Sequence record: PZ452578.1
Strand: one strand, 5' to 3'
DNA length: 64,000 nt
Source of the DNA: a phage
Below the pieces are notes generated by a model. That model was not told the origin of the DNA and ran no database searches. It saw only the letters and a program-made list of their open reading frames with translations. How positions within the stretch are numbered: the stretch's first letter is position 1; each line of letters opens with the position of its first letter. The translations under genes were made by a program, and so were the position numbers. This document shows, piece after piece, positions 183 through 37,563 of the stretch.

Positions 183-2879
183 TCAGCCAAACAGGAAGTC
201 TAACGAAGCTTTTTCTTCATAGTCCATACCAGCCGATTCACACATGCCTGCAAGCGGTTTAACAAACGATTTTTGGAACAAAGTTGAGTAGTCAATCCAA
301 GACAGTACGTCAGAACGAATTTCTTTTGGAAGTTCTGTGCCCGACGGCCAAGCAATGCACTTGTCACCAAATGGATTTCCTTCACGCAATGGAAGAACCA
401 TTACTTTATTTCCATCCAAAATTGGAGCTACACCCAGACCACTAACAGCTCGACGATAAGTTAGCACACCGCGAATATGGAACGGACATTTAAATCCTGG
501 CCAACCTTTATCATCATATTTCGCTATATCGTTCGCAGTTTTTACTTCAGCAATAACTTTATAGTCAAGTTGACGATATTCTTTCTCAAAGTTCTTATAA
601 TATTCTTGAACAGACTCTTCGCCTTCTTGAAGAATACGACGGATACTTTCTTCAAGAGCTTCTTGGACCGCTTTAGGCGTTGAACTCTGCTGAGTTTCCA
701 TACCCATGATTTTTAGATGCGGTTCAGCAAATCGCTTATCTTCCATATCATAAACGTTCAGAGCATAACGTTTTTTCGCTTTCCAAAATCCACCAACACC
801 CTTTGAACCAAGCGGAGGGCAAGAAATAGCTTCACGGTCCATATGCATCAGATGCTCGCGGTTATTCATATAATCACATAACTCACGATATGCAACATCA
901 ATCATAGGTTCCATCTTTTTCTTACCGAACTGATTCATGAATTCAACTAAATCGTTCTGCTCTTTGAATCGGTCAAGACCAACTTTTTCAATAACTTTAT
1001 CTACACAAACATATACCGAATCAGTATCACCTGCTGCGATGAAATCTTCGCCATTAGTTCCGCATACTTTATTCAGATATTCATTAATTTTACGAGCAAT
1101 CCACTGAATACCAACTTGGCCGAAAATTGTGATAGCAGTAGCATTTCGCAAATCATAGTAACGAAAATGAATATTACCAAGAGCACCGTAAAGACTGTTA
1201 ATAAGAATTTTACGGTTCAGCTGATTTGTGTTAGCAAGTGTAGCTGCTTTTTCACATTCTTCAATCAAACTATTGAGAACAGATTCGGTGTAATTCGATA
1301 GTTCATTTAAGAAATCATCACTGAACTTAACATATCGTTCAACTTCAGGTTTAGTTGAACAAGACCCTGCGCCTTTCATAATAATCTTTTTAATAGCTTC
1401 GGCATTCATTTCTTCAGCGAACATTTTCTTTTTCCAATCTTTACGCTGGAAAAATACTTTAGCGATTTCCTTTGGAATGATACCTTCTTGATGCTTATCA
1501 TACATCCATCCATTCGGAGAACAAGAATATTCATCACTCGGTTTAGGAGCTGTTCCTGCGATATATTCATGAATTGGATGAACTTTAAATTGTCCACGAA
1601 TAGTCTCAGGACTAATGTTAACCTGGCGAATAATACTCGGATACAGAGACGTCAAGTCAAAACTCATAATGTATCGACGAGCAATTGGCTTAGGTTCAAA
1701 TACAAATGCACCCGGAAAACTCTGTTTAACATGCGAACCTTGTTGAGGAATAACCTTATGTTCACCTTTCAATGAGTTAAAAATAATAGCATCCCAAGTT
1801 TTAATAGGACTCATTACACCAGAAAAAGGCATTTTAGCGTAATAAGACATACTTAAAACTAGATCGATAAACCCGCGAATTTTATCAATTGCTTGAACTG
1901 ATTCTACGTCAATGATGTTATAACTAATGTATCGTTGATGATTAGTCTCACGAAGTTTATTAATAGGACCATCATACGGTAATTTACCTTTTTTGGTTTC
2001 ATGCTGAGCAACTGATTCCAAAGAGAATGACGGCAAATTAGTAAATGCGAATTTCTTATACAAATCTAAATAATCAAGAATAGATACGCCATCAATAGAA
2101 TAAATTTCTTTGCTACCGTACATATTTTGAATTAGTTTAGATTTTACTCGACCAATTGGAGAGAAGCGTTTCATACTACGTTCACCGAGAACCATTTTAA
2201 CGCGATTCATGATATACGGAACGTCAAATCCCTCAATATTCCAACCAGTAAAAATAGCAGGTCGTTTCTGTTCCCAAAGATTGATATATTCCATGAGCAT
2301 ATCACGCTCATTATCGAATGGCATATAAATTACTCGGTCAAGAATTTCTTGAGGAACTTCATCACCACCTTCACAGTCAAGCTTAGCAGCTAACTTTGCA
2401 TCCCATTTTGATACTGAACCGTACATTGAATTCAAAAGGTCGAAAACATAAAAACGATCATCAATTGAATCGTAATGAGTGATAGCATCAATTTCATATT
2501 CAGCTTTCATTGGGTCAGGAAATTTATCACCAGTAACCTCAATGTCACAGTTAGCTACACGAACAAATTTTCGGTCATAAACAATTTCTGAACCGTATGT
2601 ATCACTGATATAAGCGAGTTTAAAATCGTTCATACCGAGAGCTTCGAGACCGATGTCTTCCATTCGTTTCATCCAATCTCGAGCATCTTTCATTGATGGA
2701 AATTTTTGAGGAGCGCAGTTTTTACCATAAATGTCTTTGTACTTTGACTCTTCCTTACAATGCCTAAACATAGTTGGAAGATATTCTACTTCACGAGTAC
2801 GTTCCTTTCCGTTTTCATCAATATAACGTTCAACAATGTTATTTCCGACTGTTTCAATAGAGATATAAAATTCTTTCAT
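183..2879 (-). CDS. 43: DNA polymerase gp43 (family B, 3'-5' exonuclease plus polymerase)
   Basis: 898-aa ORF starting MKEFYISIETVGNN; exo motif CDIEV, polymerase motifs SLYPSII and GDTDS; size and sequence as I recall for T4 gp43. Confidence 0.97.
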   Translation of the reverse strand: MKEFYISIETVGNNIVERYIDENGKERTREVEYLPTMFRHCKEESKYKDIYGKNCAPQKFPSMKDARDWMKRMEDIGLEALGMNDFKLAYISDTYGSEIVYDRKFVRVANCDIEVTGDKFPDPMKAEYEIDAITHYDSIDDRFYVFDLLNSMYGSVSKWDAKLAAKLDCEGGDEVPQEILDRVIYMPFDNERDMLMEYINLWEQKRPAIFTGWNIEGFDVPYIMNRVKMVLGERSMKRFSPIGRVKSKLIQNMYGSKEIYSIDGVSILDYLDLYKKFAFTNLPSFSLESVAQHETKKGKLPYDGPINKLRETNHQRYISYNIIDVESVQAIDKIRGFIDLVLSMSYYAKMPFSGVMSPIKTWDAIIFNSLKGEHKVIPQQGSHVKQSFPGAFVFEPKPIARRYIMSFDLTSLYPSIIRQVNISPETIRGQFKVHPIHEYIAGTAPKPSDEYSCSPNGWMYDKHQEGIIPKEIAKVFFQRKDWKKKMFAEEMNAEAIKKIIMKGAGSCSTKPEVERYVKFSDDFLNELSNYTESVLNSLIEECEKAATLANTNQLNRKILINSLYGALGNIHFRYYDLRNATAITIFGQVGIQWIARKINEYLNKVCGTNGEDFIAAGDTDSVYVCVDKVIEKVGLDRFKEQNDLVEFMNQFGKKKMEPMIDVAYRELCDYMNNREHLMHMDREAISCPPLGSKGVGGFWKAKKRYALNVYDMEDKRFAEPHLKIMGMETQQSSTPKAVQEALEESIRRILQEGEESVQEYYKNFEKEYRQLDYKVIAEVKTANDIAKYDDKGWPGFKCPFHIRGVLTYRRAVSGLGVAPILDGNKVMVLPLREGNPFGDKCIAWPSGTELPKEIRSDVLSWIDYSTLFQKSFVKPLAGMCESAGMDYEEKASLDFLFG

Positions 2880-5126: not shown

Positions 5127-5813
5127 TTAAAAATCGTGGGTAGAATCAGCTTCAAGAGCTACTACATAATTCGCATGTTCACCTTCAAATTTAGCAGCGC
5201 CTTGTTTACCTTTTGCCCAGAGCAGAAGTTTATAATTTCCTGGTTGCATTTTCATATTTGCCATATTGATAATGAAATTAAATGTATTTTCACCATCATA
5301 ATCACCAAGAGTCAAAGAATATTTAACACGGGTCAGAGCAGAATCTTCTACTTTATTAAAACCGTTAATTACGATTTTACCTTCTTTTACCGTGATAGCA
5401 ATTGTATCAATTTGCAGACCACGAGATACACGCAACAGTTGTTGAAGGTCTTCAGCTTTAATTTCAGTAACAACAGATGCTACCGGGAATGGAATTGGTT
5501 TATTAGGAGCAACTACTGTACTCGGATCGGCTGCTGGCCAAAAAATTGTTGAGCGGGCATCAGCAATTTTAATATTTCCATCTTCTGACTGGGAAATTTC
5601 TGCATCATCATTAACTAGAGACAGAATACCGAGAAAACCGTTCAAATCGTAAATTGCTACATCAAAATCAATAACGTCAGAAATATTTGCTTCCGCATAA
5701 GTTGTACCATTAACTGCGCGAGTCATAATAAATTGACCGGATTTAAGCATAATACCAGAGTTAATAGTAGCGAAATTTTTAAGCAGAGCAGTAGTATCTT
5801 TAGACAGTTTCAT
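5127..5813 (-). CDS. 45: sliding clamp gp45
   Basis: 228-aa ORF MKLSKDTTALLKNFATINSGIMLK...; size and position as in T4. Confidence 0.95.
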   Translation of the reverse strand: MKLSKDTTALLKNFATINSGIMLKSGQFIMTRAVNGTTYAEANISDVIDFDVAIYDLNGFLGILSLVNDDAEISQSEDGNIKIADARSTIFWPAADPSTVVAPNKPIPFPVASVVTEIKAEDLQQLLRVSRGLQIDTIAITVKEGKIVINGFNKVEDSALTRVKYSLTLGDYDGENTFNFIINMANMKMQPGNYKLLLWAKGKQGAAKFEGEHANYVVALEADSTHDF

Positions 5814-5868
5814 GTAATTTCCTTCAATTCAAATGAGATTTAATTTTATAACTAATTTAATAAAGCAA

Positions 5869-6258
5869 TTAACGATTAAAATCAGCCGCAATTGTTTCGG
5901 CAACAATTTGAGCAGCAACAATCAGACGTTCATCTGCATTGCCGCAATATTCATCTTCAAGGCGTTCACCACATGAAGTCATAATAAATTTAGCACCAGC
6001 GTTTAGGGATTCTGTAGTATGTTTGCGCATTAGTTCAATCCATTTATTACTTACTTCACGATCGATAGCTTCATAATACGCATGACGAGCAGGTGCAGAT
6101 TTAATTTTGTTCTGAATAACTTCCATTGCGTTATCAGAAAGAGACAAAACCCATGCTCGACGAATTTTATTTTGGTTTTGTGGATTTGATTCAGAACGCA
6201 CGTGTTTTGGCTGAATATCTTTTACGTCAACAGTATAATTCACAGTAATTTTAGTCAT
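5869..6258 (-). CDS. rpbA: RNA polymerase-binding protein RpbA
   Basis: 129-aa ORF immediately upstream of gene 45; size and position as in T4. Confidence 0.8.
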
Positions 6259-6267
6259 AATACACCT

Positions 6268-6459
6268 TTAGTCATAATAATCAGTAACAGTCCAAGCTTC
6301 ATTTCTATTGGACATTATTTTTGTATATTCTGCTTTAAATGCATTCCTAAGCATAGATTCAGTAACTATATGCTCTTCATTAGAAAAATTATTTCTCAGA
6401 ATATATCGTTTTATTTCAGGAATAGTTAATAGATGCTGTCCAGTTGAATATTCTGCCAC
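6268..6459 (-). CDS. hypothetical protein (45.1 position)
   Basis: 63-aa ORF in the early-operon orientation. Confidence 0.5.
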   Translation of the reverse strand: MAEYSTGQHLLTIPEIKRYILRNNFSNEEHIVTESMLRNAFKAEYTKIMSNRNEAWTVTDYYD

Positions 6460-6510
6460 AGTTCCTCCGTATAAATATGTTTATCACTCGCTGTATCAAA
6501 AGGATATGTT

Positions 6511-7227
6511 ATGAATTATAAACTAATTTATGAAAAGTTAATCTCTAATGCTAAATCTCGAAAACTTGATTGCTATACTGAATCTCATCACATTATACCG
6601 CGCTGTTTAAATGGAAGTGATGATGCTTCAAACTTAGTAGATTTAACACCAGAAGAGCACTATGTAGCTCATCAACTTTTAGTAAAAATTTATCCTTCTG
6701 AACCAAAATTAGTCTATGCTGCTAACATGATGACAGTTTCTACGAAATACGCTAAACGCAACAATAAAACTTTCGGTTGGATTCGTCGTAAACTCTGGGA
6801 AATAGAAAAGAACAAAGAATTCTCCCAGGAGACACGAAAGAAAATGTCTGATGCAGTAGCTAATAAAGCAAGACTAACTTGTCCTCATTGCGGTAAGTCT
6901 GGATTAAGCGGGAATATGAATCGTTGGCATTTTGATAACTGCCCAAATCACCCTAATCCTAAAGTTAGACCACCAATGTCTAAAGAACACAGAAATAATA
7001 TCTCAAACGGGCTTAAAGCAATCGTTCTTGAAGAAACATCCTGCGAATTCTGCGGAATGATAGGCAAGAAATGCGTTATCGCAGCGCATAGAAATTTCTG
7101 CAAGAAAAATCCAAATGGACGCAAGAAAACTGAAAAGACTGGTACTTGCGTCCATTGCGGTAAAGTTACCACTTTCGGAAATTTATCAAGGTGGCATAAT
7201 GATAACTGTAAATATAAACCTAGCTAA
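6511..7227 (+). CDS. HNH homing endonuclease-like protein with three zinc-finger-like repeats
   Basis: 238 aa; N-terminal HNH signature ESHHIIPRCLNGSDDASNLVDLTPEEHYVAHQ; three C-terminal repeats of CxxCG...(R)WHxDNC. Plus strand, antisense to the surrounding early genes. Confidence 0.8.
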   Translation: MNYKLIYEKLISNAKSRKLDCYTESHHIIPRCLNGSDDASNLVDLTPEEHYVAHQLLVKIYPSEPKLVYAANMMTVSTKYAKRNNKTFGWIRRKLWEIEKNKEFSQETRKKMSDAVANKARLTCPHCGKSGLSGNMNRWHFDNCPNHPNPKVRPPMSKEHRNNISNGLKAIVLEETSCEFCGMIGKKCVIAAHRNFCKKNPNGRKKTEKTGTCVHCGKVTTFGNLSRWHNDNCKYKPS

Positions 7228-8908
7228 TCTTAGCTAAACTAAATCTACCAACTTTTTCCATCTGAATATGCTGACCATATTCTTGTGGGTCATGGTCTTT
7301 ATGCGAAATTATGAAGAAGTTGGTATCCTTCAAACCATCTAAAATTTTAGCTACATTTTTAATGCCTTCAGCATCAAATGCACCATCATACACTTCATCA
7401 AGAAATAAACAACTTATTTTAACACCTGAAACTTTTTCAGCAATATCACGCCAAGTAAATAAAAGAGCAATATCAATTCGTGCTTTTTCACCTTGACTGA
7501 ATGAAGCATAACTAAAATCTTCACGACCACGGGATTTAATTGTCTCATTAAATTCTTCATCTAATGTAAACACATAATCCGCTTCCATTATTTTAAGATA
7601 ATGGTTAATCTGCTTATTAAATAATGGAATGTACTTTTTAATAATAGCACCTTTAATACCAGAATCTTTGAGCATATCAGTCAAAATTCCTCGGTGGTAT
7701 TTTTCCATTACTAAATTAGTTTTTGTCTTAACAATTTTATCAAGTTCTTCTTGAAGCAGTGCTATTTCATCAGCATGGTCAATAAACTCAGAAGATGCTT
7801 TTTCTATAGCCGCTTTAACTTTTTTAGCTTTATCTACCGTCGTGATTAGAGATTGCTTTTTATTGCGAATATCATTTGCCAACGACTGTTGGGTTTTAAT
7901 ATTATCTCGGTATTCATCAACAAGAACTTTTAAATTATCACGGTGTGTTGAAAGCTGTTCAAATGAATGCGTACATTCAGAAACTTTATCTTTAATTTTA
8001 GAAACAACTTTATCACCGGAACTTAATTGTGACAAACAGGTTGGACATAATCCACCTTCGTGATACATATTAATGACTTTATTATACGAGTCAATTTTTG
8101 ATTTAATTAAAAATGCTTCTTGACCGATTTTATTAAATGCATCAGTCGGGTCTTCATCTAAAACAATATTAACTAATCTTTCATTAGCTTCTTCTATTTC
8201 TGATTTTAGCGTTCTAGCTTCTTTTGCCAAATCATCATACATATTTTGTAGACGAGTAAGGTTGTCACCCGTTAATTTTTTCTGGCGTTCAACGTTATCA
8301 TTATATATTTTAATTTGTTGGATAATACTATCTTTTTTAACATCAAGCACTTGGTTTTGTGAATTTAATTCACGTATTAGTGCTTTATTAAGCTTATCCA
8401 TTTCAGCTAATGTTCCTACCTCAAGCAGGTCTTCCACAAGCTTTCTTCGTGCAGGGGTCGACAAACCCATGAAAGGGATATACCCTGCTGTACCAAGGAC
8501 AACAATCTGCTTGAAACTGGCATATGACATTCCGATAAGCTGTTCAAATTCTGCTTGGAAATCTTTACTGCTGGCAGATTCATTAAGACGTGTACCGTTA
8601 ACGGTGATTTCGAAAACGTTTGGTTTTTGTCCTCTTTTGATATAGTACTTTTTCTCATCATATTCCATCCACAGTTCAACTAAAAGTTCTTTCTTATTTG
8701 TGCTGTTTATTAATTGACCTTTCTTTACATCACGAAATGGCTTGCCAAAAAGCCCAAATGTGATGGCTTCTAGCATAGTAGACTTACCACCGCCATTTCG
8801 TCCAGTAATAAGAGTTTTTTGAACCTTATCTAATTGAATGTCAATAGGATTTCCACCTACTGACATTATATTTTGATACCTAACTCGGTTTAGTTTAAAA
8901 TTCTTCAC
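7220..8908 (-). CDS. 46: recombination nuclease subunit gp46 (Rad50/SbcC-like ATPase)
   Basis: 562 aa; Walker A GRNGGGKST, long central coiled coil with CPTC zinc hook, C-terminal signature/Walker B (LFLDEV). Confidence 0.95.
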   Translation of the reverse strand: MKNFKLNRVRYQNIMSVGGNPIDIQLDKVQKTLITGRNGGGKSTMLEAITFGLFGKPFRDVKKGQLINSTNKKELLVELWMEYDEKKYYIKRGQKPNVFEITVNGTRLNESASSKDFQAEFEQLIGMSYASFKQIVVLGTAGYIPFMGLSTPARRKLVEDLLEVGTLAEMDKLNKALIRELNSQNQVLDVKKDSIIQQIKIYNDNVERQKKLTGDNLTRLQNMYDDLAKEARTLKSEIEEANERLVNIVLDEDPTDAFNKIGQEAFLIKSKIDSYNKVINMYHEGGLCPTCLSQLSSGDKVVSKIKDKVSECTHSFEQLSTHRDNLKVLVDEYRDNIKTQQSLANDIRNKKQSLITTVDKAKKVKAAIEKASSEFIDHADEIALLQEELDKIVKTKTNLVMEKYHRGILTDMLKDSGIKGAIIKKYIPLFNKQINHYLKIMEADYVFTLDEEFNETIKSRGREDFSYASFSQGEKARIDIALLFTWRDIAEKVSGVKISCLFLDEVYDGAFDAEGIKNVAKILDGLKDTNFFIISHKDHDPQEYGQHIQMEKVGRFSLAKIS

Positions 8909-9120
8909 AAAAGATTCCTTTTAATGTATCTTTTAGACCATTCTATCATATCATCATAATCTAAAAAGTATTCATCAAATTCAGCCATGCAAACAACACC
9001 TTGTGCTGTTTTTGATGTGATATAAATTATTCCAACATATCTAGAATCTTCTTCGGTGTAATCAATATTTGCTATGAATTCATCGTTAATGTCAAATGTC
9101 GAAAACTTCACAGTATGCAT
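8905..9120 (-). CDS. hypothetical protein (46.1 position)
   Basis: Small ORF; start set at an internal Met to limit overlap with the upstream ORF. Confidence 0.45.
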   Translation of the reverse strand: MHTVKFSTFDINDEFIANIDYTEEDSRYVGIIYITSKTAQGVVCMAEFDEYFLDYDDMIEWSKRYIKRNLL

Positions 9121-32765: not shown

Positions 32766-33032
32766 AAAGGCCTCCTATCATTTTTGTCCTGTATTTACTT
32801 TATGCCGATGCACGGCCTTAACTTTATCAAGGTATTTTTCAAAATTTCGCAATCTAGTATAGTCTGCCGGAGATTGGTTGAGTGATACTTCTCGACGCAA
32901 AGCTGAAATGATATTTCCAACTTCCCTACGAATTTCATCTAATTAAAGCACAGTAAGATTGCGAAGTTGCTTTTCAGTTAATTGTAGCATATATACCCCT
33001 TTAGTTAGATAAACCTATTTATAACTTTTGCA

Positions 33033-33614
33033 CTAACCGAGCTTTTTAGTTAATTCATTCCAATGTTTTCTACACAAAGAAACATAAATTTCATCACCAA
33101 TACAGATTTGATTACCTTCTTTAACTGGTGTTCCATCTTCCATTAATCGAGCTGTCATAATCGCTTTTTTACCACAGTGACAAACTGCTTTTAGTTCAAT
33201 AAGTTTATCTGCAATCGCCAAAAGTTCTTTAGAACCTTCAAATAATTTTCCAGCGAAATCAGTCCTTAATCCATAAGCCATAACAGGAACATTATATGTA
33301 TCAACAATTCGACTTAATTGATGCACCTGTTCAGTTTTTAAAAATTGGGCTTCATCTACAAATACGCAATGAATATCTTTTTGTGCTTCAGCCCATTTAT
33401 AGAACTCGAAAATATCCATATCATCTGTGATAATATTCGCTTCCTGTTTAATTCCAATGCGAGAAACGACTTCACAGACAGAGTCGCGAGTATCAATAGC
33501 AGGCTTAAGAATTAATACACTCATTCCACGTTCTTTATAATTATGTGCAGCAGTCAAAAGAGAAGCAGATTTTCCAGCATTCATTGCTGCATAAGTAAAA
33601 ATTAAACTCGCCAT
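33033..33614 (-). CDS. tk: thymidine kinase
   Basis: 193 aa; P-loop AAMNAGKS, C-terminal zinc ribbon (CHCG...C..C) typical of TK1-type kinases. Confidence 0.92.
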   Translation of the reverse strand: MASLIFTYAAMNAGKSASLLTAAHNYKERGMSVLILKPAIDTRDSVCEVVSRIGIKQEANIITDDMDIFEFYKWAEAQKDIHCVFVDEAQFLKTEQVHQLSRIVDTYNVPVMAYGLRTDFAGKLFEGSKELLAIADKLIELKAVCHCGKKAIMTARLMEDGTPVKEGNQICIGDEIYVSLCRKHWNELTKKLG

Positions 33615-33615
33615 C

Positions 33616-33804
33616 TTAGTCCTTAGTTAAATTTTCTAAATATGTTTCTAAATCATTTTCAGCTTTATCGATAGATTTTACTAATTCGTAATATGTTTCG
33701 GCATCTCCATAATCAGAAGATAATTCAAAAGACAAATCCTTTTCTAAACTAATAATTTCACCAACTAAAAATAATATTTCGTTCTTTTGTTCGCGAGTAA
33801 TCAT
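33616..33804 (-). CDS. hypothetical small acidic protein (tandem paralog 1)
   Basis: 62-aa ORF. Confidence 0.5.
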   Translation of the reverse strand: MITREQKNEILFLVGEIISLEKDLSFELSSDYGDAETYYELVKSIDKAENDLETYLENLTKD

Positions 33805-33986
33805 AAAGAATTTATATAATCAATGAGTTCTTGTTCTTTATTATCGAATTCTTTAGAAAGTTCTTCGTATTCATTTGCATTAAAAGGACCGCATTCATCA
33901 CAAACTTTTTCCAATTCACTGTTTTTATCCATAACTTCGTGGATAAGAGAAAAGAGTTTGTCTTTTTGTTCTTTGCTTAAACTCAT
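33801..33986 (-). CDS. hypothetical small acidic protein (tandem paralog 2)
   Basis: 61 aa; similar start (M.L.KEQKD.LF.L..E) to ORF 33616..33804. Confidence 0.5.
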   Translation of the reverse strand: MSLSKEQKDKLFSLIHEVMDKNSELEKVCDECGPFNANEYEELSKEFDNKEQELIDYINSL

Positions 33987-34152
33987 ATATTAATTTCCAA
34001 AAGTTTTAAAATAATTCGCTTTTGCTTAAATATTTCCACAGTTAAATGATCAGTATCTTTTTGACCAATTCCAATGGCAAAACCTTTATTAACAGCGAGT
34101 TCAATTAAATTATCAAGTTCACGTAACACTTCATATTGTAACTCAGAACTAT

Positions 34153-34365
34153 TCATTTCGGTTTACCTTCTTTAACGAAATCTGGATAAGGATAAAATCC
34201 CGAATAAAATCCTTCACCTTTATGATTGATGCATCCTTTATTAGAACAATAGCACCAATAATCGAAATCACAAGCCATTTCATCGTTGCATAAAGCAAAA
34301 ACAACCGGCCATTTACACTTTTCACAGTGGGCATTTTTAAGAATACTAGTTTGGCTCATAACCAT
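34153..34365 (-). CDS. hypothetical cysteine-rich small protein
   Basis: 70 aa with 8 Cys (CEKC...C...C..C.C...C). Confidence 0.5.
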   Translation of the reverse strand: MVMSQTSILKNAHCEKCKWPVVFALCNDEMACDFDYWCYCSNKGCINHKGEGFYSGFYPYPDFVKEGKPK

Positions 34366-34583
34366 GTCACCTTTAAGCAGTATTCTTCTACATGCTGTTT
34401 ACGACCTTTCTTATCAATAAAGGTATATTCAACGAATGTTCCAATGTAGTCTTTATCTACATCATGTGGACTATTAATTGGACATTTAGTACGGCAAATG
34501 CGTTCCCATTGACGAATAATTACTGCCTTATTCTTTGGGTCATACGGATGTGGATAATGTATATTCATAATAACGGTTCCCAA
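34356..34583 (-). CDS. hypothetical protein
   Basis: 75-aa ORF. Confidence 0.5.
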   Translation of the reverse strand: MGTVIMNIHYPHPYDPKNKAVIIRQWERICRTKCPINSPHDVDKDYIGTFVEYTFIDKKGRKQHVEEYCLKVTWL

Positions 34584-35032
34584 TCAACAATCACAATTTC
34601 TAATTTAGAGGAATATGTATCTAAAATCCCCTCAATAATATCCCAGTTCCCTTTACCTATGCCTGCACCAATCCTAGGCATATAGATTGTAGGTTTAATC
34701 AGTTTATTTTCACCAAACTCATTTAATTCTAACATACAATTCATTAAAGCGGAATACTCAAAATTTGGCCCTGGTTGAAATTGAGTATAAAGGTTGAAGC
34801 AATACGCTTTATGAGTCCTAAAGTATTTTTCATAGACTGAATAAGAACCAAGTTTAGTTACATCACCCCATTCAGTCTGTAATTTATCAGCTTCCAAAAT
34901 TTTAGGGAAAGCTTTAGTTAATTGACCTGCGACTCCAGCTTTCATCGTGTGAAAACAATTACATCCATGCGCAATATTTTTACCTTCAGCGAAAAGGGCG
35001 ACAATATCGCCCTTGATATATTTTACAATCAT
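34565..35032 (-). CDS. macro-domain protein (ADP-ribose binding or hydrolase fold)
   Basis: 155 aa; YIKGDIV, NIAHGCNCF, GVAGQL and C-terminal PRIGAGIGKGNWD resemble the conserved macro-domain blocks. Confidence 0.7.
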   Translation of the reverse strand: MIVKYIKGDIVALFAEGKNIAHGCNCFHTMKAGVAGQLTKAFPKILEADKLQTEWGDVTKLGSYSVYEKYFRTHKAYCFNLYTQFQPGPNFEYSALMNCMLELNEFGENKLIKPTIYMPRIGAGIGKGNWDIIEGILDTYSSKLEIVIVDWEPLL

Positions 35033-35376
35033 CTAGTACTCAATCCTCGATTATAAGAATCTACCAAACGGTCAACCATTGAATGACAAGCGGCTTTATC
35101 TTTCTCCTCCGCAACTGAACATTCTAAAGTATTCCACTTTTTAGCATATCGTTTTAATAATGTATCATTTTTGTATCTACTTGATTTATCTCTTTCTCCG
35201 TCTTTATATGCATATATTAATTTCTGTGCAAATTCAGCTTGACATGCTTTATTTTTCCCACAATAATCTGCCGCAGTGCGGTTTACATATTCTCTAATTT
35301 CAGTATATGATGTATCTGCTGACGCAGAAGCAGAAAATGAAATTAATCCTATACATAAAACCAAAATTTTAGTCAT
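35029..35376 (-). CDS. secreted small protein (signal peptide)
   Basis: 115 aa; signal peptide MTKILVLCIGLISFSASASA and four Cys. Possibly the positional equivalent of vs, not verified. Confidence 0.55.
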   Translation of the reverse strand: MTKILVLCIGLISFSASASADTSYTEIREYVNRTAADYCGKNKACQAEFAQKLIYAYKDGERDKSSRYKNDTLLKRYAKKWNTLECSVAEEKDKAACHSMVDRLVDSYNRGLSTR

Positions 35377-35914
35377 TTACTATTTCCAAAAGTTTATTAT
35401 TTTTAAGGTAATTAGCCTTTTCTAGGACTTCAGAAGCATATTTAGAACCTGCTTTAACATTCCATCCCGAATTATAAGAGGATATTGCTTTTCTTATATC
35501 GCCCTTATGTATATTTAACCAATAAGAAAGTTCAATGTACGCCCAGGAAGCTGAATTGGATCGTTTATTCAACATTCTTTTTATTTCAGCATCGGTCATA
35601 TTATAACCAAGTTCCTTAACTCTTGCTCGCATAGTAGGCAAATAATTTTGGAACATTCCGTAGGCGTGATGCTTTGGTTTAGATTTTAAATTAACTCCGC
35701 CAGAGCTTTCTTGCCATAAAATAGCAGCCATTATATGACCTAATCCGCTCTTGTGGATATTTTTATGTGTTTTATATTTTCCATCCTTAGAAAACTGTTC
35801 CCCGAATTGATACGCGTAACGCATGTTATCGAGTTGGACATTACTGAAAGTATGCTCGGAGCTATGTGCCATCATTGAAATGGCCAATAGACCAGCGAGT
35901 AGTGCTTTTCTCAT
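35369..35914 (-). CDS. secreted lytic transglycosylase-like protein
   Basis: 181 aa; signal peptide MRKALLAGLLAISMMAHS; SLT-like catalytic block WQESSGG...YGMFQ. Confidence 0.65.
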   Translation of the reverse strand: MRKALLAGLLAISMMAHSSEHTFSNVQLDNMRYAYQFGEQFSKDGKYKTHKNIHKSGLGHIMAAILWQESSGGVNLKSKPKHHAYGMFQNYLPTMRARVKELGYNMTDAEIKRMLNKRSNSASWAYIELSYWLNIHKGDIRKAISSYNSGWNVKAGSKYASEVLEKANYLKNNKLLEIVND

Positions 35915-35921
35915 GCTTACC

Positions 35922-36383
35922 TCATTGAGTTTTAATTACTGCTTTAGAAGCCTTTCCTGGTAAACGACGACTATTGATAATTGCCATCCTGCACTGAAGT
36001 GACGGGTCTTTGAACTTCGCATTAGGTTTACAAACTGTAAATCCAAGCCAAAGATTTCCATCTGTGATTTCTAGACGCCCAGGACGATATTCAACCCCAT
36101 CAATAAAATCCTCGTCAATGTCAGGACGCGGAGGCATACTCAGGAATTCATTAACTTCTAAAACATGGTCTTTTATTTTATGGAATAATTCAAAAACGTA
36201 TGTCTCATCAATCTCCCGTTGAATTGCGCGATCAAGAAGATGTTGAGAATATTTTAGATGAAACGATGAGACCCCTGCTGCTTTTGATGCCTCACGAATC
36301 TCATTGTTAATTTGACGAAACTCCGACTCAAAGTGACGACGAAGCTTATTTCGACGGATAAAAACTTCTGTATTGATAGTCAT
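35922..36383 (-). CDS. regB: endoribonuclease RegB
   Basis: 153-aa ORF MTINTEVFIRRNKLRRHFESEF...; size and position as in T4. Confidence 0.85.
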   Translation of the reverse strand: MTINTEVFIRRNKLRRHFESEFRQINNEIREASKAAGVSSFHLKYSQHLLDRAIQREIDETYVFELFHKIKDHVLEVNEFLSMPPRPDIDEDFIDGVEYRPGRLEITDGNLWLGFTVCKPNAKFKDPSLQCRMAIINSRRLPGKASKAVIKTQ

Positions 36384-36410
36384 GTTATTCTCCTCTTAAC
36401 TGATAGAAAA

Positions 36411-36440
36411 ATTATACCACAGTCAAGAGGAAAAGTAAAC
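36411..36440 (-). promoter_or_regulatory. phage early promoter upstream of regB
   Basis: Minus strand: GTTTAC (-35), 15-nt spacer, TGgTATAAT (-10). Confidence 0.65.
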
Positions 36441-36442
36441 AG

Positions 36443-36763
36443 TTATTCTTTAAATCTAATCAATTTATTCATAGACTTTGAAACTTCTGCACGAACCTCA
36501 TGTAGATTTTTGAGCTGCTCAAGACGCTGCGCATAGTAAGCAATTTCATCTTCTTCGAGACAGTCCTGTGAATCTTCTTTAAGATAACGTGCATAGTCCT
36601 GAAAAGCGTTACGAACTACTTCCTGGAAATCATCAAGACTTTGAATTTTCTTAGGAGCAGCAGATACACGACGAGGGGCAGTATAATACTCATAACCAAA
36701 CCCTGCGCTTAATTGAGCCATTAGTATTTTTCCTCTGGTTGGAACACTGCACGACAAGCCCAC
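36443..36763 (-). CDS. hypothetical protein (vs.3 position)
   Basis: 106-aa ORF. Confidence 0.5.
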
Positions 36764-37023
36764 ATACTGGCTTCTTTGAGTTTCGTTTTAGCAATAGTTA
36801 ACTGATCGAGGCTTTCAGCATAATTCTTCGCGAGTTCATCATCTTCACAGCTATCAAATGCTTCCCAAAATTCATCGTATAAAGCATCAAAGATAAGTCC
36901 TAAACGAACTTCAGCGTCTTTAATAGCATTTACTTTACCGATTTTTTCGTCGGTATGTGGCTTATAACCTTTAATATCTTCAATCATATTTGACTTCCTC
37001 ACCAGTGCATAAATCATATTCAA
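36721..37023 (-). CDS. hypothetical helical protein, positional candidate for vs.4 (Acb2-like)
   Basis: About 88-100 aa depending on start; second small ORF upstream of regB in a vs.3-vs.8-like series. Assignment by position and size only. Confidence 0.4.
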
Positions 37024-37201
37024 CTAAACGAATAGGTTCATGAATGCCATATCCTTGAACAGAAATTTCTGTCGTAGGATAAATTCCATCAATATCACCC
37101 ATATTCCAGGCTTCATTAAATTGCTGTTCGCCTGAATTACTAAACCACTCGGCGAAAGCATTTAGCACATCTTTAGAACCTTCAATAATTATCTTTGCCA
37201 T
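36980..37201 (-). CDS. hypothetical protein
   Basis: 73-aa ORF. Confidence 0.45.
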   Translation of the reverse strand: MAKIIIEGSKDVLNAFAEWFSNSGEQQFNEAWNMGDIDGIYPTTEISVQGYGIHEPIRLVEYDLCTGEEVKYD

Positions 37202-37563
37202 TACAAACTCTCAGTAAAGGTACGAGCGATAACGTCGCGCTGCTGTTCCGGAGTCAGAGAGTTAAAGCGAACTGCATAACCAGATACACGGATGGTCAGC
37301 TGCGGATATTTTTCCGGATGCTTAACTGCATCTTCCAGAGTTTCACGACGCAGAACGTTAACGTTCAGGTGTTGACCACCTTCAATTTTAATTGTAGGCT
37401 GTGGCTCAATTTCAATTTCACGGGCATGCAAACCATAGAAAATTTCTGGGTCTACAAAAGAGTCCTCTTTAAAGGTTTTAGAAACGATAATTCGTGCTTG
37501 AATACCATCTTCAAAATAAATAGTGCCTTTGTGTGTGCCTTCAAGAATTTGATATGCTTTCAT
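37201..37563 (-). CDS. GrcA/YfiD-like autonomous glycyl-radical cofactor
   Basis: 120 aa; C-terminus [29 protein letters not shown] is the glycyl-radical signature found in E. coli GrcA and the PFL C-terminus. Confidence 0.8.

What the first reader, a model, noticed from the sequence alone, without database searches (positions are those of the whole stretch)
34153..35032. Macro-domain protein next to cysteine-rich small proteins in the tk-regB region
ORF 34565..35032 has macro-domain hallmark blocks (GDIV, NIAHGCNCF, GVAGQL, PRIGAGIGKGNWD). Macro domains bind or hydrolyse ADP-ribose derivatives, so a phage copy could reverse ADP-ribosylation-based host defence or process phage-made ADP-ribosyl modifications. 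The neighbouring 70-aa protein (34153..34365) has eight cysteines, suggestive of a zinc-binding partner.
Basis: partly seen in the sequence, partly recalled or inferred. Interest (0 to 1): 0.55.

Follow-up and report, generated by a model that had tools for sequence, protein, structure and literature searches.

The report
T4 tk.4 (AdfM) macrodomain, already known

Summary
ORF 34565..35032 (minus strand, 155 aa) carries all four quoted motifs. It passes Pfam Macro, gives a confident AlphaFold model (pLDDT 95.3), and its best structural matches are TARG1, Poa1p, BT1257 and DarG macrodomains.

The window is a Tequatrovirus and the ORF is tk.4, 98.7% identical to T4 Tk.4. A 2025 preprint (HIDEN-SEQ) found tk.4 as the only T4 gene needed against DarTG2, showed that a clean knockout is sensitised, and named it adfM. 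The DarT-reversal idea is therefore supported but already published.

My additions:
- The family has an invariant Gln84 where DarG and TARG1 have the catalytic Lys, as in SCO6735/BT1257, which do hydrolyse thymidine-linked ADP-ribose on DNA.
- This allele differs from T4 at G31K/S32A in the GxG loop.
- tk.4 is mosaic among near-identical phages.

The 70-aa neighbour has seven cysteines, not eight. It belongs to Pfam PF23895 (Phage_zn_bind). T4 has no homologue anywhere in its genome, I found no fusion to a macrodomain, and one distant relative lies far from any macro gene. The partner idea is unsupported.

Verdict: real, ordinary, already known; low interest.

The parts
34565..35032 (-). tk.4 / adfM: stand-alone macrodomain protein of 155 aa
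   Evidence: ORF. Pfam Macro hit. 98.7% identical to T4 Tk.4. AF2 pLDDT 95.3. Foldseek hits to TARG1, Poa1p, BT1257 and DarG. PADLOC DarG model E 1.1e-7, macro part only.
34955..34969 (-). Codons 22-26, H-G-C-N-C. Asn25 is the counterpart of DarG N22, SCO6735 N27 and PhiKZ AdfM N23.
   Evidence: H22, G23, N25 and C26 are invariant in 55 family members. Column equivalence. The role of the Asn is taken from PMC9411070 and PMC13309987.
34934..34942 (-). Codons 31-33, K-A-G. This is the loop-1 'GxG' motif with the first Gly replaced by Lys (T4 has G-S-G).
   Evidence: These are the only two differences from T4 Tk.4. Column 31 is G in 46 of 55 relatives and K in 3.
34781..34795 (-). Codons 80-84, N-L-Y-T-Q. 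Gln84 occupies the column of the catalytic Lys of DarG (K80) and TARG1 (K84), and of the essential Gln85 of SCO6735.
   Evidence: N80 and Q84 are invariant. Three profile-based alignments agree on the column. The SCO6735 numbering was rebuilt and agrees with the residue numbers in the paper read.
34649..34678 (-). Codons 119-128, P-R-I-G-A-G-I-G-K-G: the glycine-rich phosphate-binding loop 2
   Evidence: P119, G122 and G124 are invariant. The loop aligns with PRIGCGL of TARG1 and BT1257.
34994..35014 (-). GC-rich hairpin (9 pairs, loop of 3) inside codons 7-13 of tk.4, followed by a T-rich run. Function unknown.
   Evidence: -13.4 kcal/mol for the hairpin alone. The hairpin sequence is seen in phages of six groups (Tequatrovirus, Mosigvirus, Kagamiyamavirus, Dhakavirus, Krischvirus and the unclassified HMD-6), with compensatory changes. 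No Rfam match.
34356..34568 (-). tk.3, 70 aa from the ATG, DUF7202. It overlaps the tk.4 stop by ATGA.
   Evidence: It was not a hit in the T4 DarTG2 screen, where tk.4 was the single hit.
34153..34365 (-). Cysteine-rich 70-aa protein (RB32ORF111c type), Pfam PF23895 Phage_zn_bind
   Evidence: Pfam E 2.6e-29 and phrog_2306. 7 Cys and 2 His. Invariant C14, C17, C40, C45, H48. AF2 pLDDT 86.8, small beta-rich fold. No significant PDB fold match.
33983..34156 (-). 57-aa ORF (RB32ORF110c type), function unknown
   Evidence: phrog_3452.
33988..34354 (.). Segment with no counterpart in T4. It carries the two ORFs above, and its ends are ambiguous by about 6 nt.
   Evidence: BLASTN of the window against T4: 36400..34355 aligns at 98.1% and 33987..33000 at 97.6%, and the two blocks abut in T4. 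T4 annotation.

Best explanation
ORF 34565..35032 (minus strand) is the orthologue of phage T4 tk.4, now called adfM (anti-DarT factor, macrodomain). It is a stand-alone macrodomain of the ALC1/TARG1-like class. It lies in the tightly packed run of minus-strand genes from regB to tk, which I infer to be early or middle genes.

The most likely mechanism is this. The host toxin DarT2 (of the DarTG2 system) ADP-ribosylates thymidines in single-stranded phage DNA and so blocks replication. Tk.4 binds the ADP-ribose moiety and hydrolyses the thymidine-ribose bond, which restores the DNA. It thus acts as an orphan antitoxin that the phage carries itself.

The active site is not of the DarG type. The position of the catalytic lysine (DarG K80, TARG1 K84) is an invariant glutamine (Q84), next to an invariant asparagine (N25). 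This is the arrangement of SCO6735/BT1257. In SCO6735 the Gln and Asn are essential, and hydrolysis is proposed to start from a positioned water molecule.

Shown here or in the literature: orthology, fold, residue pattern, and the genetic requirement for tk.4 in T4.

Inferred: that this allele (G31K, S32A) behaves like the T4 allele, and that protection is enzymatic.

The cysteine-rich neighbour, tk.3 and the 57-aa ORF are independent small genes of a variable gene array, not parts of the same machine.
For: Identity and context:
- The region is 98.4% identical to phages RB14 and SH7, with the same gene order.
- The protein is 98.7% identical to T4 Tk.4.

Fold:
- Pfam Macro hit.
- AF2 model at pLDDT 95.3.
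- Foldseek hits to TARG1, Poa1p, BT1257 and DarG at probability 1.00, TM 0.72-0.81.
- Profile against PDB sequences gives E 2e-20 to 4e-17 for the same set.
- PADLOC DarG model E 1.1e-7.

Function:
- In T4, tk.4 was the single significant hit of a transposon screen on a DarTG2 host, and a clean knockout was sensitised (bioRxiv 10.1101/2025.11.20.689424).
- T4 lacking adfA and adfN remained DarTG2-resistant, which predicted a further factor (PMC11825919).

Mechanism:
- H22, G23, N25, C26, N80, Q84, P119, G122 and G124 are invariant in 55 relatives.
- Q84 falls in the K80/K84/Q85 column by hmmsearch, hmmalign and mafft --add.
- SCO6735 removes thymidine-linked ADP-ribose from DNA and protects against DarT; its Q85A mutant is dead and N27S nearly so (PMC9411070).
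- A different phage macrodomain, PhiKZ gp104, removes DarT2 marks from DNA in vitro (PMC13309987).
Against: - There is no biochemistry for any T4-type Tk.4. The preprint itself only says enzymatic removal 'seems likely'.
- The catalytic lysine of DarG is absent.
- This allele has Lys in place of the first Gly of the substrate-binding GxG loop, so it differs from the tested T4 protein exactly where substrate binds. The allele is common, though: at least 37 phage records are 99% or more identical, and one protein cluster has 122 members.
- SCO6735 Q85A still inhibits DarT by direct interaction, so a non-catalytic contribution is possible.
- The profile scores to BT1257, DarG, TARG1, Poa1p and SCO6735 are nearly equal at 65-76 bits. 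The sequence alone therefore does not fix the substrate.
Confidence: 0.8

Rival explanations
1. Tk.4 neutralises DarTG2 without catalysis, either by binding and inhibiting DarT2 directly or by capping ADP-ribosylated DNA.
For: The catalytically dead SCO6735 Q85A mutant still inhibits DarT efficiently by interaction (PMC9411070). Tk.4 lacks the DarG catalytic Lys. This allele also has a G31K change in the GxG loop.
Against: Every residue that matters for catalysis in the Gln-type enzyme is invariant in 55 relatives (N25, Q84, both glycine loops), which fits selection on an active site. The protein has no counterpart of the C-terminal DarT-binding domain of DarG: it matches only model positions 2-145 of 329.
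Confidence: 0.1
2. Its main substrate is a small ADP-ribose derivative (ADP-ribose-1''-phosphate, O-acetyl-ADP-ribose, or an ADPR-based immune signal). This is what the RefSeq label 'phosphatase' and the 'Poa1p-like' label imply.
For: Poa1p (an ADP-ribose 1''-phosphate phosphatase) and OARD1 (an O-acetyl-ADP-ribose deacetylase) match about as well as DarG. Annotations read 'phosphatase' or 'Poa1p-like', and phrog_335 is labelled 'phosphatase'. A survey of viral NAD/ADPr systems argued that many phage macrodomains might act on soluble derivatives (PMC9503650).
Against: The only phenotype on record for the T4 orthologue is specific loss of resistance to DarTG2, a DNA-modifying system. The 'phosphatase' label comes from homology transfer, not from an assay.
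Confidence: 0.07
3. It reverses or tunes ADP-ribosylation made by the phage's own transferases (Alt, ModA, ModB).
For: T4-type phages encode three ADP-ribosyltransferases (T4 annotation).
Against: No linkage: in T4, alt, modA and modB lie far from tk.4. From my own knowledge, not tested here, those enzymes mainly modify arginine, a linkage that macrodomains are not known to cleave. The gene is conditionally needed only in the presence of DarTG2.
Confidence: 0.03
4. The cysteine-rich 70-aa protein is a zinc-binding subunit or regulator of the macrodomain.
For: It lies 200 bp downstream in the same tightly overlapping gene array. PF23895 homologues are found between the macro gene and tk in five genera of Straboviridae. 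In Krischvirus a second kind of small zinc protein (PF23903) directly follows the macro gene.
Against: - The whole T4 genome has no homologue: best tblastn E 0.16 and best HMM E 0.03, against 2.6e-39 for the window control. T4 Tk.4 is still sufficient for DarTG2 resistance as the single hit of the screen.
- 2734 phage records have a Tk.4 homologue, but only 738 have a detectable PF23895 homologue.
- The ten longest of the 150 listed family representatives (252 significant matches in all) show no macro fusion.
- A distant homologue has no macro gene within 6 kb.
- The shared position within Straboviridae is explained by the general synteny of that family.
Confidence: 0.05

Closest known systems
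Phage T4 Tk.4 = AdfM (anti-DarT factor, macrodomain); bioRxiv 10.1101/2025.11.20.689424
   Same: It is the same gene. The protein has 153 of 155 residues identical, sits in the same position between vs and tk.3, and has the same invariant residues.
   Different: There are two adjacent substitutions in the GxG loop (G31K, S32A). The window also carries a 367-bp insert with two extra small ORFs further downstream that T4 lacks.
DarG, the macrodomain antitoxin of DarTG2 (PDB 5M31, 5M3E, 5M3I, 7OMU)
   Same: It has the same macro fold subclass (TM 0.76-0.79; profile E 2e-19). The conserved Asn is shared. The expected reaction is the same: removal of ADP-ribose from thymidine in ssDNA.
   Different: Tk.4 has Gln84 in place of the catalytic Lys80. 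It has no C-terminal DarT-binding domain. It has no adjacent darT gene and is encoded by a phage.
SCO6735 (Streptomyces coelicolor, PDB 5E3B) and BT1257 (PDB 2FG1, 2AFC)
   Same: These are the best sequence matches among solved structures (BT1257 E 2e-8 with the single sequence and 2e-20 with the profile). They share the H-x-C-N motif and the Gln at the catalytic position. SCO6735 hydrolyses dT-ADPr DNA and protects against DarT.
   Different: Identity is only about 25%. Tk.4 lacks the five-residue insertion of the mobile loop that carries Lys89 in SCO6735. Gly23 stands where SCO6735 has Val25. These are cellular, not viral, proteins.
PhiKZ gp104, also named AdfM (PMC13309987)
   Same: It is a phage stand-alone macrodomain that counters DarTG2, and it has been shown in vitro to remove DarT2 marks from DNA.
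   Different: It belongs to a different subfamily. It keeps the DarG-type Lys (motif P-T-K). BLASTP against Tk.4 aligns only 23 residues at E 0.018. It is imported into the phage nucleus, which T4-type phages do not have.
TARG1/OARD1 (PDB 4J5R and others) and yeast Poa1p (PDB 6LFQ and others)
   Same: These are the top Foldseek hits (E 5e-10 to 3e-9). The conserved His before the Asn position and the PRIGxG loop are shared.
   Different: The TARG1 catalytic dyad Lys84/Asp125 is Gln84/Gly126 in Tk.4. Their known substrates are protein Glu/Asp-ADPr, OAADPr and Appr1p, although TARG1 can also act on dT-ADPr DNA (title of PMC8501950).
Pfam PF23895 'Phage zinc binding domain' (for the 70-aa neighbour)
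   Same: Full-length match at 101.5 bits against a cut-off of 27. The conserved pattern is CxxC ... C-x4-C-x2-H.

Membership tests
Macro domain superfamily (Pfam PF01661) | Score above the Pfam gathering threshold | tested here: met
   25 bits against a cut-off of 22, E 1.9e-5, covering residues 22-132. 32 of the 79 database homologues also carry a precomputed PF01661 hit; the other 47 have none recorded.
Macro domain superfamily (Pfam PF01661) | Three-layer alpha/beta/alpha macro fold | tested here: met
   AF2 pLDDT 95.3, pTM 0.90. 117 PDB matches have E of 0.001 or better, and the top 19 are all macrodomains at probability 1.00.
Macro domain superfamily (Pfam PF01661) | Glycine-rich ADP-ribose-binding loops (loop 1 GxG; loop 2 G-x-G-x-G) | tested here: inconclusive
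   Loop 2 is intact: P119-R-I-G-A-G-I-G-K-G, with P119, G122 and G124 invariant. Loop 1 reads K31-A32-G33 here. G33 is invariant, but the first Gly is Lys in this allele, while it is Gly in T4 and in 46 of 55 relatives.
T4 Tk.4 / AdfM orthologous group | Near-identity to T4 Tk.4 and the same genomic position (vs - tk.4 - tk.3) | tested here: met
   98.7% identity over 155 aa. Same neighbours, with ATGA start/stop overlaps.
T4 Tk.4 / AdfM orthologous group | Required for plating on a DarTG2-expressing host | not testable with these tools
   Shown only for T4. It is inferred for this allele.
DarG (DarTG2 antitoxin) | Catalytic lysine (K80 in T. aquaticus and M. tuberculosis DarG) | tested here: not met
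   Gln84 occupies that column in hmmsearch, hmmalign and mafft --add alignments, and it is invariant in the family.
DarG (DarTG2 antitoxin) | C-terminal DarT-binding domain | tested here: not met
   The protein ends after the macrodomain at 155 aa. The PADLOC DarG model is matched only over positions 2-145 of 329.
DarG (DarTG2 antitoxin) | Encoded next to a darT toxin gene | tested here: not met
   The neighbours are vs, vs.1 and regB upstream, and tk.3, PF23895, a 57-aa ORF, tk.2, tk.1 and tk downstream. None has an ADP-ribosyltransferase domain.
SCO6735/BT1257-type (Gln-type) ALC1-like macrodomains | Gln at the catalytic position, held by the conserved Asn (SCO6735 Q85 and N27) | tested here: met
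   Q84 and N25 are both invariant and lie in the same columns as the BT1257 and SCO6735 residues. Their roles are taken from PMC9411070.
SCO6735/BT1257-type (Gln-type) ALC1-like macrodomains | Extended mobile loop after the Gln carrying Lys89/Lys94 | tested here: not met
   The five residues 'mktgs' (SCO6735) and 'iykds' (BT1257) are insert states relative to the Tk.4 family profile. Tk.4 reads Q-F-Q-P-G-P-N.
SCO6735/BT1257-type (Gln-type) ALC1-like macrodomains | Hydrolysis of thymidine-linked ADP-ribose on DNA | not testable with these tools
   It needs an enzyme assay.
Pfam PF23895 Phage_zn_bind (70-aa neighbour) | Score above the gathering threshold, and a conserved Cys/His ligand pattern | tested here: met
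   101.5 bits against a cut-off of 27. C14, C17, C40, C45 and H48 are invariant in 11 sequences from five Straboviridae genera and from metagenomes.
Pfam PF23895 Phage_zn_bind (70-aa neighbour) | Actual zinc binding | not testable with these tools
   It needs metal analysis of the purified protein.

The most novel reading that the evidence does not exclude
T4-type AdfM may be a mechanistically distinct, Gln-type DNA ADP-ribosyl-hydrolase rather than a captured DarG. On this reading, its cassette-like allelic replacement (55% identity in an otherwise 97-100% identical backbone) and loop variants such as G31K tune its specificity towards different DarT2 variants or other nucleic-acid ADP-ribosyltransferases. 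The conserved hairpin plus U-run at the start of its coding sequence would set how much of it is made, and the changing set of small zinc proteins just downstream would be separate counter-defence cassettes.
Probability: 0.15. Interest if true: 0.4.

Novelty: already known. Interest (0 to 1): 0.13.

Why it matters
The gene matters biologically. It is one layer of the T-even phages' defence against DarTG systems, alongside AdfA and AdfN, and it shows phages carrying antitoxin-like enzymes of their own. But this has already been published for T4 (tk.4 = adfM), macrodomain labels are already in many phage records, and phage macrodomains are common: one survey found them in 41% of myoviruses. The finding therefore opens no new question.

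What remains modestly useful from this analysis:
- The T4-type protein has a Gln-type (SCO6735-like) active site, not the Lys-type site of DarG. This bears on mechanism and on any inhibitor or engineering work.
- The natural allele here carries G31K/S32A in the substrate-binding loop and has not been tested.

Tried and rejected
- **Partner hypothesis for the 70-aa protein.** Rejected on four tests: its absence from the whole T4 genome, the record counts, a search for domain fusions among representatives, and the context of a distant homologue.
- **Small five-sequence MAFFT alignment.** It put Q84 two columns away from the DarG lysine. I rejected that register because three profile-based alignments agree with each other and recover the N...T identities.
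- **Promoter and terminator scan of 32900..37300.** It found no more sites than shuffled sequence does (19 against 17.4, and 3 against 2.2), so I make no transcription-unit claim from it.
- **Rfam scan of 33500..35500.** No match.
- **CmdTAC paper.** I checked it for any T4 macrodomain link; macrodomains appear only in its reference list.
- **Tk.4 as a true DarG family member.** Considered and rejected (see the membership test).
Full report
**Observation.**
The window region 33000..36400 is 98.4% identical to Tequatrovirus phages RB14 and SH7. The minus strand carries the T4-type gene order regB, vs.1, vs, tk.4, tk.3, two small ORFs, tk.2, tk.1, tk. The 70-aa ORF at 34153..34365 (minus strand) is real but has seven cysteines and two histidines, not eight cysteines. 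Adjacent genes overlap by ATGA or similar at nearly every junction from vs.1 to tk.1, so this is one compact gene array.

**Is it a macrodomain?**
Yes.
- Pfam Macro is passed: 25 bits against a cut-off of 22.
- The single sequence finds BT1257, Poa1p, OARD1/TARG1, SCO6735 and DarG among solved structures.
- A profile of 55 relatives raises these matches to E 2e-20 to 4e-17.
- The AlphaFold2 model is confident: pLDDT 95.3, pTM 0.90.
- Its best Foldseek PDB matches are TARG1, Poa1p, BT1257 and the DarG macrodomains, at probability 1.00 and TM 0.72-0.81.
- The PADLOC DarG model matches at E 1.1e-7, but only over its macro part, positions 2-145 of 329.

**What is it, and is it known?**
The protein is 98.7% identical to T4 Tk.4 and 100% identical to an annotated 'macro domain protein' of phage BYEP02. 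Public records already label the orthologues 'phosphatase', 'Poa1p-like', 'macro domain protein', 'ADP-ribose binding site', and even 'antitoxin, toxin-antitoxin'.

A 2025 preprint (HIDEN-SEQ, 10.1101/2025.11.20.689424) infected a DarTG2-expressing host with a T4 transposon library. It found tk.4 as the single significant hit and confirmed that a clean knockout is sensitised. It noted structural similarity to M. tuberculosis DarG and named the gene adfM. It states only that enzymatic removal of ADP-ribose from DNA 'seems likely'.

This fills a gap left by earlier work, in which T4 lacking adfA and adfN remained DarTG2-resistant (PMC11825919). Independently, the unrelated PhiKZ macrodomain gp104, also named AdfM, was shown in vitro to remove DarT2 marks from DNA (PMC13309987).

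**Mechanism, and one refinement.**
In 55 relatives the invariant residues are H22, G23, N25, C26, G33, A35, N80, Q84, P119, G122 and G124.

Three profile-based alignments (hmmsearch against the PDB, hmmalign, and mafft --add) put Q84 in one column. That column holds the catalytic Lys80 of DarG, Lys84 of TARG1, the Lys of PhiKZ gp104, the Gln of BT1257 and Gln85 of SCO6735. A quick five-sequence MAFFT run gave a register two columns off. I discount it because it loses the N...T identities that the profile methods recover.

SCO6735 is the relevant precedent. It lacks both TARG1 catalytic residues, yet it hydrolyses thymidine-linked ADP-ribose on DNA and protects against DarT. It loses all activity in Q85A and nearly all in N27S, and it is proposed to use a positioned water molecule (PMC9411070).

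Tk.4 therefore works like DarG but is not a DarG. It has no catalytic Lys, no C-terminal DarT-binding domain and no adjacent darT. It is not a plain SCO6735 either, because the five-residue mobile-loop insertion is missing. Profile scores to BT1257, DarG, TARG1, Poa1p and SCO6735 are all 65-76 bits, so the T4-type family is its own branch of the ALC1/TARG1-like class.

**Caveat for this allele.**
The only two differences from T4 are adjacent: G31K and S32A. They turn the loop-1 GxG motif into K-A-G. Column 31 is Gly in 46 of 55 relatives. The K31 form is nevertheless frequent. At least 37 phage records are 99% or more identical to the window protein, which excludes the T4-type allele because that allele differs at two positions. 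One protein cluster of this form has 122 members. It is probably functional, but it is untested.

**The cysteine-rich neighbour.**
- It is a full-length member of Pfam PF23895 'Phage zinc binding domain' (E 2.6e-29) and of phrog_2306.
- Across 11 sequences, only C14, C17, C40, C45 and H48 are invariant. This fits one CxxC...C-x4-C-x2-H metal site rather than an eight-ligand cluster.
- The AF2 model is a small beta-rich domain at pLDDT 86.8.

**Is it a partner of the macrodomain?**
For:
- It lies between the macro gene and tk in Tequatrovirus, Mosigvirus, Kagamiyamavirus, Krischvirus and Slopekvirus.

Against:
- The window has a 367-bp segment (33988..34354) carrying this ORF and the 57-aa ORF that T4 simply lacks.
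- A tblastn and an HMM search of the complete T4 genome find no homologue. The best values are E 0.16 and 0.03, against 2.6e-39 for the window as positive control.
- In T4, tk.4 alone was the hit of the DarTG2 screen.
- 2734 phage records hold a Tk.4 homologue, against 738 with a PF23895 homologue.
- An exhaustive profile search found 252 representative clusters, and the 150 listed are 54-190 aa long. The ten longest of those have no macro domain; one has a sub-threshold HTH.
- A 51%-identical homologue on an integrase-bearing metagenomic contig sits between an RNA ligase and PLD/RtcB genes, with no macro gene within 6 kb.

The co-location within Straboviridae is best explained by family-wide synteny of a variable small-gene array. 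I treat the partner idea as unsupported.

**Things seen on the way.**
- *Hairpin in tk.4.* A 9-bp GC-rich hairpin followed by a T-rich run lies in codons 7-13 of tk.4 on the sense strand (34994..35014). It recurs in phages of six groups (Tequatrovirus, Mosigvirus, Kagamiyamavirus, Dhakavirus, Krischvirus and the unclassified phage HMD-6) with compensatory changes. These include a double silent G-C to A-U change in EcS1 and a C-G to A-U change in HMD-6. In 11 sequences, 77.8% of cells are paired and three pairs change on both sides. The covariation score is 0.22 against 0.13 in shuffles (0 of 500 reach it), and it is higher than in all slid registers. The sample is small and related, so this is suggestive only. 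One record annotates it as a terminator, and Rfam has no match.
- *Mosaic tk.4.* In Tequatrovirus S1P5QW the flanking proteins are 93-100% identical to the window's, but Tk.4 is only 55% identical.
- *Other genes nearby.* vs.4 (36721..36987, minus strand) matches the Acb2/Tad1 hairpin domain, and vs.6 matches a glycyl-radical domain.
- *Paralogues.* tk.1 and tk.2 are paralogues.

**Verdict.**
The feature is real. The functional guess is right, and the partner guess is not supported. The whole is already known at the level of gene, fold and phenotype, so interest is low. The modest new points are the Gln-type active site and the G31K allele. The enzymology of the T4-type protein remains to be done.

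Noticed in passing
window 34994..35014 (minus strand), inside codons 7-13 of tk.4: A GC-rich 9-bp hairpin (AAGGGCGAU-AUU-GUCGCCCUU, -13.4 kcal/mol) followed by a T-rich run lies on the sense strand. The hairpin is conserved with compensatory changes in T4, S1P5QW, mobillu, EcS1, QL01, Makalu/MIZ6 and HMD-6, and absent from IME523, VAC36, KP15, Apostate, GAP31 and pinkbiff. It is annotated as a 'terminator' in MN882349. Covariation is 0.22 against 0.13 in shuffles. It could be an attenuator or an mRNA-stability element.
   Followed up: partly
window 34565..35032 compared with L008 (OL956808.1) 2001..2480: tk.4 is mosaic. In a Tequatrovirus where RegB, Vs.1, Vs, Tk.3, Tk and the Cys-rich protein are 93-100% identical to the window's, Tk.4 is only 55% identical. 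Its N-terminal ~45 residues are still nearly the same, which suggests recombination within the gene.
   Followed up: partly
window 34934..34942 (minus strand), codons 31-33 of tk.4: The only differences from T4 Tk.4 are G31K and S32A, which change the substrate-loop GxG motif to K-A-G. The allele is common in nature but has not been tested.
   Followed up: partly
window 33988..34354: A 367-bp segment carrying the Cys-rich ORF and a 57-aa ORF is absent from T4. The flanks are 98% identical and abut in T4 with about 6 nt of ambiguity.
   Followed up: yes
window 36721..36987 (minus strand, vs.4) and 37201..37563 (minus strand, vs.6): vs.4 matches the Pfam Acb2/Tad1 hairpin domain (E 9.4e-20), that is, the anti-CBASS sponge family. 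vs.6 matches the glycyl-radical domain (E 3e-18). A second counter-defence gene therefore lies 1.7 kb from tk.4.
   Followed up: no
window 33616..33804 and 33801..33986 (minus strand): tk.1 and tk.2 are tandem paralogues. Both match DUF7438 and phrog_653.
   Followed up: no
L005 (MN882349.1) 2298..2492 and 2489..2707: In Krischvirus Makalu the gene directly after the macro gene belongs to a different small zinc family (PF23903, Phage_zn_bind_2), and it is followed by the PF23895 homologue. The interval between the macro gene and tk seems to collect small zinc-type proteins.
   Followed up: no
L007 (JGI Ga0613820_0001010) 5162..8968: A distant PF23895 homologue sits between an RNA ligase and PLD-like plus intein-containing RtcB genes on an integrase-bearing contig. 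This is an RNA-repair context with no macro gene nearby.
   Followed up: no
window 36411..36439 (minus strand): The best promoter-like site on the gene strand (TTTACT-17-TATAAT with an upstream TG) lies just upstream of regB. Overall, the scan found no more sites than shuffled sequence does.
   Followed up: no
bioRxiv 10.1101/2025.11.20.689424 (T4 vs gene; window 35029..35376, minus strand): The same preprint reports vs, the gene immediately upstream of tk.4, as the most depleted T4 gene in minimal glucose medium.
   Followed up: no
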